Shown here piece after piece: positions 3,352 to 3,706 of a DNA stretch of 64,000 bases (position 1 is the stretch's first letter; every line of letters begins with the position of its first letter). A program made the translations under genes and the position numbers. The notes below the pieces were generated by a model. The model worked only from the letters and a program-made list of their open reading frames with translations, made no database searches and was not told the origin of the DNA. The stretch lies in contig OZ220716.1 in assembly GCA_965116795.1 (NCBI GenBank), positions 1,642,503 through 1,706,502 of the forward strand. Reading direction: 5' to 3'. The stretch comes from Gammaproteobacteria bacterium (GTDB taxonomy: Bacteria > Pseudomonadota > Gammaproteobacteria > JAJFKG01).

Positions 3352-3706
3352 AAAACGCCCGCTGCGCGCCAAGGAGAGCGATAGCTCAAGGCGCGTAGTC
3401 CGCGGAAGCCGAGGCTTGTCATCGCAAACGGAGTTGCCGGAAAGCCAACGCTCGCAGGCAAGCGCAGTAAGCGATGACAAGCTATCCTCGGCGTCGAGTC
3501 ACTTGAGAGGCGATCTGCAGTGTGCGTCAGTACACGTAGGAATCGGTGACGAGGACGGCCGCGGCAACTTAGGTAGTCACGTTAGCGAGTCGATTTTGGG
3601 CATGGATGAACGAAATCTTTCACGAGATAGTGACTCAATTGATCGTTGGTGGATCTTACCAGAAAACGTCCACTCAACGCTGACGTTTTTTGGTAGCATT
3701 AGGACC
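3352..3706. repeat. Small repeat/MITE (family R) hosting 282-nt copy 1
   Basis: AAAACGCC|ATCGTTGGTGGATCTTACCAGAAAA...ATTAGGACC; the end is the reverse complement of GGTCCTAAT that starts the 40844 copy. Confidence 0.65.
3360..3641 (+). mobile_element. 282-nt structured repeat element, copy 1 (divergent copy)
   Basis: Colinear with 5769-6050 and 51312-51593 and the same length; removing it restores AAAACGCC|ATCGTTGGTGGATCTT, a motif seen uninterrupted at ~40857 and ~45995-46036. Confidence 0.9.

What the first reader, a model, noticed from the sequence alone, without database searches (positions are those of the whole stretch)
3360..3641. Covariation shows the 282-nt element is a conserved multi-helix structure with RNA-like polarity
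Seen by comparing copy 1 with copies 2/3. Hairpin GAGC-GATA-GCTC becomes GGAC-GATA-GTCC inside the stem CTGCGCGCC/GGCGCGTAG. The 3' stem AGTCAC/GTGACT becomes TGTCGC/GCGACA, two compensatory pairs. Stems GCTTGTCATCGC/G(C/T)GATGACAAGC, G(C/T)CGAG/CTCGGC and GATTTTG/C(G/A)AAATC vary only between Watson-Crick and G-U pairs. GTGTGC-GCAA-GTACAC and a GAAA loop are GNRA-like, CCGCGG/CCGCGG closes a large domain, and junctions are purine-rich. AGTTGCCG is complementary to the distant CGGCAACT in all copies, suggesting a pseudoknot or switch. The wobble pairs work on the + strand only. Inference: a folded ncRNA of ribozyme-like complexity rather than a simple DNA palindrome.
Basis: partly seen in the sequence, partly recalled or inferred. 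Interest (0 to 1): 0.88.

Follow-up and report, generated by a model that had tools for sequence, protein, structure and literature searches.

The report
Jumping DNA that borrows topoisomerase I
This 282-base repeat is a gene-less mobile element, found in up to about 350 copies per genome in some Gammaproteobacteria, that almost always sits four bases downstream of a C; it likely folds and moves as single-stranded DNA using the host's own topoisomerase I, which would make it a new kind of transposon.

Summary
The covarying fold is real, but the element is a mobile repeat rather than an RNA gene. The genome holds 8 full copies with sharp ends. Homologues (232-317 nt) occur in 25 of 150 Gammaproteobacteria families sampled, with 355 and 271 copies in two genomes. 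On 32 homologues, 31 of 45 pairs change on both sides; the proposed pseudoknot fails. Insertion leaves no duplication and follows 5'-C-N-N-N: C at -4 in 142/144, 188/194, 83/85 and 125/127 sites, with T/A preferences like the published E. coli topoisomerase I motif TCNTT|W. Copies favour the lagging-strand template (68/89 in unguided tiles) and show no sense bias in genes (31 versus 45), so this is not an intron. Loops are DNA-type GNA mini-hairpins (105 versus 34 expected), not GNRA or UNCG. No transposase or reverse transcriptase is linked or shared by the carriers tested. Best reading (0.55): single-strand peel-and-paste transposition catalysed by host TopA. Against it: the right end has its C at -6, RNA energy rules recover the helices better, and nothing is tested biochemically. 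No Rfam match; not found in ten literature searches.

The parts
3360..3641 (+). Element copy 1 (282 nt), intergenic, just 3' of the csrA terminator; identical to three other copies in the genome
3356..3359 (+). Target tetranucleotide C-N-N-N of copy 1 (C at -4); host DNA, outside the element
3361..3399 (+). Helix P1 (3361-3370 with 3390-3399), with invariant G.T pairs and an internal loop C-A-N-G-G-A
3378..3385 (+). P1 tip GCGATAGC, a measured DNA mini-hairpin (Tm 71 C in Table 1 of PMC13037366); a GAA triloop in 23 of 32 homologues
3400..3564 (+). Central domain: P2 (3400-3405/3559-3564), P3 (3408-3412/3488-3492, variable extension) and P4 (3498-3500/3554-3556, bulged A) around a conserved three-way junction
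3575..3635 (+). 3' domain: P5 (3575-3580/3630-3635), tandem G.A segment, P6 (3592-3599/3610-3617) with a C-W-N-G-G-A tip
3636..3641 (+). Six-base 3' tail; the conserved C is at -6 from the end
5769..6050 (+). Copy 2 (89% identical to copy 1), C at -4 (5765); lies antisense inside a DNA methyltransferase-like reading frame
51312..51593 (+). Copy 3, C at -4 (51308); in frame (94 codons, no stop) inside the ankyrin-repeat ORF 50429-53026

Best explanation
It is a non-coding mobile element that inserts without a target duplication just 3' of C-N-N-N, mostly into the lagging-strand template, and it likely folds as single-stranded DNA and is likely cut out and pasted in by the host's type IA topoisomerase I (TopA). 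Shown: the family, its sharp ends, the covarying fold, the target rule, the clean insertion, the strand bias, and the lack of a linked or shared transposase among those tested. Inferred: when the top strand is single-stranded at the fork it folds into a 5' domain (P1-P4) and a 3' domain (P5-P6) that hold TopA at the two ends. TopA cuts after C-N-N-N at the left junction and at a new single-stranded target, staying bound to the 5' phosphates. Swapped religation then joins target-CNNN to the element's 5' end and the element's 3' end to the downstream target. This is IS200/IS605 peel-and-paste chemistry with TopA in place of TnpA. How the right end is cut is the weakest step.
For: Target rule: C at -4 in 142/144 unique flanks, 188/194 in G046 and 83/85 in G149, 17/17 in plasmid NZ_CP011850.1 and 125/127 in metagenome and viral loci. 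Bacterial TopA and reverse gyrase cut ssDNA four bases 3' of a C and bind the 5' phosphate (PMC7587558, passages). The in vivo E. coli motif is TCNTTA/T (PMC9352719, section 12 and passages). T at -5, T at -1 and A/T at +1 are enriched in both genomes; T at -2 is enriched in G046 only. The two genomes' flank profiles correlate (r 0.76; control positions r 0.00) although their elements differ, which fits a host enzyme. No duplication: 6 of 7 intact copies of an interrupted IS join the two flanks with gap 0. Strand bias: G000 10/11; G046 158/192 and G149 75/82; unguided tiles 68/89 and 7/8; 38/45 among antisense in-gene copies. DNA-type loops: c(GNA)g 105 versus 33.9+-6.2 in shuffles, c(GNRA)g 20 versus 21.5, cUNCGg 0 versus 2.8; only GNA triloops form DNA mini-hairpins (PMC13037366 section 8). 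No shared mobiliser: G046 (one contig, 355 copies) has no RVT_1, no Y2_Tnp and only RAYT-like Y1 genes. G000, G049 and G149 have only IS200-type Y1 genes. All 18 carrier genomes searched have a topA, with the Arg169 equivalent kept in the 17 sequences read.
Against: The right end does not follow the TopA rule: the conserved C is at -6, and -4 is A in the window copies and T in G149 (tail CTTACG in 87/88). RNA energy parameters recover the covarying helices better than DNA parameters (mean pair probability 0.66 versus 0.53; DNA better in 7 of 32), and several G.T pairs are invariant. TopA is universal, so its presence does not discriminate. The link with TopA subtype is weak (23/125 versus 0/16, p 0.048, hand count), and G061 carries a full copy with an E. 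coli-type TopA. Carriers' TopA has Tyr and Phe where E. coli has Arg173 and Tyr177, so its cleavage motif is assumed. topA in G046 is frameshifted in an indel-rich assembly. Only three mobiliser families were tested. Three searches for a precedent of TopA-made insertions or strand transfer gave none.
Confidence: 0.55

Rival explanations
1. It is a single-stranded DNA element moved in trans by an HUH transposase (IS200/IS605 TnpA, RAYT-like or an unrecognised family), that is, an unusually elaborate PATE- or REPIN-like element whose guide reads only one base.
For: Insertion 3' of a short target, no duplication, hairpins near both ends and lagging-template bias are the IS200/IS605 features (PMC5027513, passages). 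Y1 genes exist in 7 of the 10 carriers searched. A similar C-W-N-G-G-A motif lies at both ends (29 and 23 of 32).
Against: The target is one base, not a specific tetra- or pentanucleotide. No Y1 subtype is shared by the high-copy genomes. The IS200 and IS91 elements of these genomes have unrelated ends. No ORF-bearing version was found among 195 and 90 copies or 60 metagenome and viral copies with enough DNA behind them.
Confidence: 0.22
2. It moves through a structured RNA, as a ribozyme or retroelement that is joined into single-stranded DNA, possibly at TopA-made breaks, and then copied to DNA.
For: The fold is complex, with invariant junction bases and G.U-type pairs. RNA parameters fit better. 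Type IA enzymes also act on RNA (PMC7587558, passages). From my own knowledge, group II introns also favour the lagging-strand template.
Against: GNRA and UNCG loops are not enriched, whereas GNA triloops are. There is no Rfam match at E <= 0.05 for 10 loci with diverse members. G046 has no reverse transcriptase. Almost all copies are full length with exact 5' ends (192 of 195 and 85 of 90). The flanks show no element-specific exon-pairing sequence.
Confidence: 0.15
3. It is a self-splicing intron or host regulatory ncRNA, whose copies are harmless or useful because they act at the RNA level.
For: Strong covariation; in-frame copies in long ORFs of this genome.
Against: In-gene copies are 31 sense and 45 antisense, and 16 versus 20 in the wider set. 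Lengths are not kept to multiples of three. Of 47 interrupted G046 gene pieces, the 35 with a Pfam family are accessory by my reading. Copy 1 lies behind a terminator with no + strand promoter match.
Confidence: 0.05

Closest known systems
IS200/IS605 family (IS608, ISDra2) peel-and-paste ssDNA transposons (PMC5027513, passages) and their non-autonomous PATE derivatives (recalled)
   Same: One active strand, 5' end inserted 3' of a short target, no duplication, subterminal hairpins, lagging-strand-template bias.
   Different: The target is a single C at -4; no tnpA is inside, linked or shared; the whole 232-317 nt is a conserved multi-junction fold.
Bacterial type IA topoisomerase I cleavage sites (PMC7587558, PMC9352719, PMC11999072; passages, one section)
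   Same: C at -4, T at -5 and -1, A/T at +1, single-stranded substrate, 5'-phosphotyrosine polarity.
   Different: TopA is a housekeeping enzyme; my searches found no report of it moving an element. The element's right end has its C at -6.
REP/REPIN with RAYT, Rickettsia palindromic elements and prokaryotic MITEs (PMC10969869, passages; PMC5896051 and PMC3116915, search listing only)
   Same: Short, non-coding, high-copy, structured; sometimes in frame inside genes.
   Different: No terminal inverted repeats or duplication; a branched fold, not a palindrome; strict target rule and strand bias.
IS91 rolling-circle elements (features recalled)
   Same: HUH-type polarity, no duplication; many members end in CTTG.
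   Different: No Y2_Tnp in G000, G049 or G046; target not fixed; 3' ends are exact; IS91 ends in G149 are unrelated.
Candidate complex ssDNA motifs DUF1874, GEBRO, PAGEV (PMC5737381, passages)
   Same: Covarying folds that the authors say cannot be told from RNA by sequence comparison alone.
   Different: Those are tied to integron-like arrays or plasmid origins; this one is dispersed and matches no Rfam family.

Membership tests
IS200/IS605 family or non-autonomous derivative | 5' end inserted 3' of a target, no duplication | tested here: met
IS200/IS605 family or non-autonomous derivative | Specific tetra- or pentanucleotide target | tested here: not met
   only -4 C is fixed; 49 different tetranucleotides among 144 sites
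IS200/IS605 family or non-autonomous derivative | Bias to the lagging-strand template | tested here: met
IS200/IS605 family or non-autonomous derivative | Cognate Y1 TnpA with matching ends | tested here: not met
   no shared Y1 subtype, unrelated ends in G000 and G049
IS200/IS605 family or non-autonomous derivative | Excised ssDNA circle and donor joint | not testable with these tools
   only assembled contigs were available
IS91 family | Y2 transposase in the carrier | tested here: not met
   a match in 3 of 10 carriers searched (G021 weak, G119, G149); none in G000, G046, G049
MITE / RPE-type repeat | Terminal inverted repeats and target duplication | tested here: not met
   ends are not complementary; gap 0 at empty sites
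Group I / group II intron | Match to intron covariance models | tested here: not met
   Rfam:
Group I / group II intron | Sense orientation inside genes | tested here: not met
   31 sense versus 45 antisense
Group I / group II intron | Splicing of the RNA | not testable with these tools
   no RNA run was listed
TopA substrate | C at -4 of the break, AT-rich context | tested here: met
   left junction and target:
TopA substrate | C at -4 at the element's right end | tested here: not met
   C conserved at -6; -4 varies
TopA substrate | Cleavage and strand transfer by the enzyme | not testable with these tools
   needs biochemistry

The most novel reading that the evidence does not exclude
A new class of transposon with no gene of its own at any stage: a natural, ribozyme-sized folded single-stranded DNA that acts as a scaffold, or co-catalyst at its right end, and turns the housekeeping topoisomerase I into its transposase. 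It reaches hundreds of copies per genome.
Probability: 0.5. Interest if true: 0.96.

Novelty: categorically new. Interest (0 to 1): 0.9.

Why it matters
The bacterial transposons I know of rely on a dedicated transposase, recombinase or reverse transcriptase, their own or a partner's. An element that redirects topoisomerase I would be a new mobility route and would show that TopA can make insertions in vivo. It would also be a rare natural DNA with an RNA-like multi-junction fold, which makes the question of functional structured ssDNA directly testable with a 280-base oligonucleotide and a standard enzyme. Whatever the enzyme, the family shapes genomes: about 355 and 271 copies in two genomes, and matches in 310 Piscirickettsia salmonis plasmid records, where it is unannotated or called 'hypothetical protein' in the 30 rows shown.

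Tried and rejected
Rfam: no match at gathering score in the window, only chance hits outside or at the edge of the element at E <= 10, none for 10 homologue loci. Pseudoknot: rejected. Linked protein: clustering 1,333 ORFs around the sites gave only common IS, signalling and element-overlap frames. Longer copies hold inserted IS110/IS1111-like elements with their own inverted repeats (L416; L063), not an autonomous form. Y2_Tnp, Y1_Tnp and RVT_1 as shared mobiliser: not supported. Second type IA genes near copies in G001 and G049 look like TopB-type genes of mobile regions and are absent from G000. TopA-subtype co-occurrence: inconclusive. Expression: no RNA holder listed. Laying contigs of five runs on two stretches showed no joint that skips the element and no circle junction; contigs cannot show absence. 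The loose ends at copy 2 in run X2 are low-agreement blends and were not counted as new sites. Distribution: viral contigs 0 and 4 matches; phages 0; plasmids 0 for two queries; 1 partial match in 150 other genomes across the phylum; 0 of 100 genomes in the class of G063, whose own hit lies on a 2.3-kb contig and may be misbinned. Prior art: ten paper searches found no description. In PMC5955585 (P. salmonis ncRNAs) a passage search for four terms found nothing on this repeat; its supplements were not read and may list it as an unnamed ncRNA. Part 1 of 12 of the source-data file of PMC9352719 lists no cleavage-site table, so the motif comparison rests on the text. Subscription journals and ISfinder could not be searched.

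Full report
Observation. The element at 3360-3641 has two more copies in the window. The genome G000 (2.45 Mb, one contig) has 8 full copies, four of them identical, plus one diverged copy and two fragments. The ends are sharp: 5' CGCTG and a six-base 3' tail. The context (alaS, aspartokinase, csrA) and the named carriers point to a gammaproteobacterium. Rfam has no match.

Family. BLAST found homologues in 5 of 60 other genomes. A pattern scan of one third of the GTDB collection gave 121 loci, about 400 estimated in all. Most of the 80 listed are Legionellales, Coxiellaceae, Chromatiales, symbionts and other Gammaproteobacteria, and many lie at contig ends. A sequence model hit 25 of 150 genomes drawn one per family from the class. 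Two of the 25, G041 and G148, are unpublished: they enter only this tally and the TopA-subtype count, and without them the tally is 23 of 148. G046 has 355 and G149 271 pattern matches. A member matches 310 Piscirickettsia salmonis plasmid records. Outside the class it was hardly found. Lengths run from 232 to 317 nt.

Structure. On 32 homologues a 45-pair model (P1; P2-P3-P4 around a three-way junction; P5-P6) has 89.1% of cells paired and 31 pairs with changes on both sides. No shuffle of 500 reaches this, and slid controls give 37-45%. RNAalifold found P1, P2, P3, P5 and P6 unprompted. The sequences are related and the model was drawn from them, so these numbers are not probabilities. The pseudoknot fails. 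The fold favours the + strand under both RNA and DNA rules, so polarity does not show RNA.

DNA or RNA. In 42 distinct full-length members, c(GNA)g triloops number 105 against 33.9+-6.2 in 100 shuffles. c(GNRA)g loops number 20 against 21.5, and cUNCGg 0 against 2.8. A 5.3-kb rRNA operon control has 10, 11 and 6. The P1 tip is GAA in 23, GCA in 2, GATA in 2, GTTA in 1, GGAA in 1 and none of these in 3 of 32. PMC13037366 (section 8 read) reports that only GNA of 64 triloops forms the DNA mini-hairpin, with Tm 76.5 C for GCGAAGC and 71 C for GCGATAGC, the very loop of copy 1; the RNA GCGAAAGC melts at 39 C. Against DNA: RNA parameters give the covarying helices a higher mean probability (0.66 versus 0.53; DNA better in 7 of 32), and some G.T pairs never vary. 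PMC5737381 (passages) warns that ssDNA and RNA folds are hard to tell apart by comparison.

Insertion. Upstream flanks have C at -4 in 142 of 144 unique sites (background 23%), rarely C at -5 and rarely G at -1; 33 downstream flanks show no fixed base. In genomes found with the model rather than that pattern, C at -4 holds in 188/194 (G046, 1.50 Mb read of 3.45) and 83/85 (G149, 0.68 Mb read). Four of the six G046 misses end in a C-run and may be sequencing undercalls (my inference). A named plasmid stretch gives 17/17 and metagenome plus viral loci 125/127. Six of seven intact copies of an IS interrupted in G049 join the two flanks with no gap or duplication; the seventh lacked the right flank match. 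Host reading frames continue in phase on both sides. Nearly all copies are full length (192 of 195 and 85 of 90).

Orientation. The element strand is the G-rich leading-strand sequence, which is the lagging-strand template, in 10 of 11 places in G000, 65 of 95 loci by local skew, 158/192 in G046 and 75/82 in G149. Two and three sites in weakly skewed tiles were dropped. Some tiles were picked from a list of + strand hits; in tiles picked without it the counts are 68/89 and 7/8. Inside genes the copies are 31 sense and 45 antisense, with 186 not in a long frame and 1 ambiguous. The bias holds among antisense copies (38/45), so it follows replication rather than transcription. I scanned 47 of the 48 interrupted G046 genes and none of the 28 of G149; the 35 with a Pfam family are signalling, chemotaxis, glycosyltransferase, transport, IS and similar genes. 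This is a disruptive insertion element, not an intron.

Which enzyme. No ORF is conserved beside the sites, and no ORF-bearing version was found. G046, a single contig with 355 copies, has no RVT_1 or Y2_Tnp match and only RAYT-like Y1 genes, while G000, G049 and G149 have only IS200-type Y1 genes (subtype labels are my reading of the sequences). The target rule matches a host enzyme. Bacterial topoisomerase I and reverse gyrase, but not topoisomerase III, cut ssDNA four bases 3' of a C and bind the 5' phosphate; Arg169 sets the preference (PMC7587558 and PMC11999072, passages). The in vivo E. coli motif is TCNTTA/T with the cut before the last base (PMC9352719, section 12 and passages). Here T at -5, T at -1 and A/T at +1 are enriched in both genomes, T at -2 only in G046, and the two profiles correlate at r 0.76. 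G000 has one topA with the Arg169 equivalent kept and Tyr/Phe at positions 173/177.

Mechanism. Shown: family, fold, ends, target rule, clean insertion, strand bias, and no shared transposase among three families tested. Inferred: ssDNA as the active form; TopA as catalyst; excision and reinsertion by swapped religation of two 5'-phosphotyrosine intermediates, as TnpA does in IS200/IS605 (PMC5027513, passages); the two similar C-W-N-G-G-A loops as binding sites. Unexplained: the right end has its conserved C at -6, so a plain TopA cut does not account for it. The subtype correlation is weak and has a counter-example. topA in G046 is frameshifted in an indel-rich assembly. I found no precedent in print.

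Verdict. The observation largely stands and leads to an undescribed family of gene-less mobile elements; ten paper searches and the Rfam scans found no account of it, though subscription journals and ISfinder were out of reach. It works like IS200/IS605 but fails membership on target specificity and cognate transposase. TopA-driven ssDNA transposition 0.55, HUH enzyme in trans 0.22, RNA intermediate 0.15, intron or regulatory RNA 0.05. Interest 0.9.

Noticed in passing
window 4171-7527: A restriction-modification pair is doubly broken: the RE_TdeIII-like ORF (5037-5585, -) runs into a DDE transposase element (4171-5064), and the N6_N4 methyltransferase ORF is interrupted by copy 2.
   Followed up: partly
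window 14756-15211: IS200-type tnpA, one of three near-identical copies in the genome; its ends are unrelated to the element.
   Followed up: yes
window 16568-16599, 45815-45944, 53440-53471; 17651-17830, 44259-44318, 53027-53159: Other families of short palindromic repeats; the genome holds several 150-200-nt families of up to 12 copies.
   Followed up: no
window 49891-53026: Ankyrin-repeat gene with 99-nt repeats, split into separate frames upstream of 50429, and with 135-nt repeats at its 3' end.
   Followed up: no
L416:2413-4100; L063; probably L062 and L065: IS110/IS1111-like elements inserted inside the element at different points, so the repeat is itself a target.
   Followed up: partly
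L131:301-508: An inverted rearrangement with the element's 5' end at both termini.
   Followed up: no
L230 (G046:C1:903177-903740): One copy inserted four bases into the 3' tail of another, at a C-N-N-N site; a second pair 283 bases apart at 781286/781569 may be the same.
   Followed up: partly
L024 (G049): Left and right flanks appear to belong to two different transposase genes, which suggests recombination between two copies (my reading).
   Followed up: no
L262-L273 (G149): About 50 IS91-family transposase matches in one genome, with ends unrelated to the element.
   Followed up: partly
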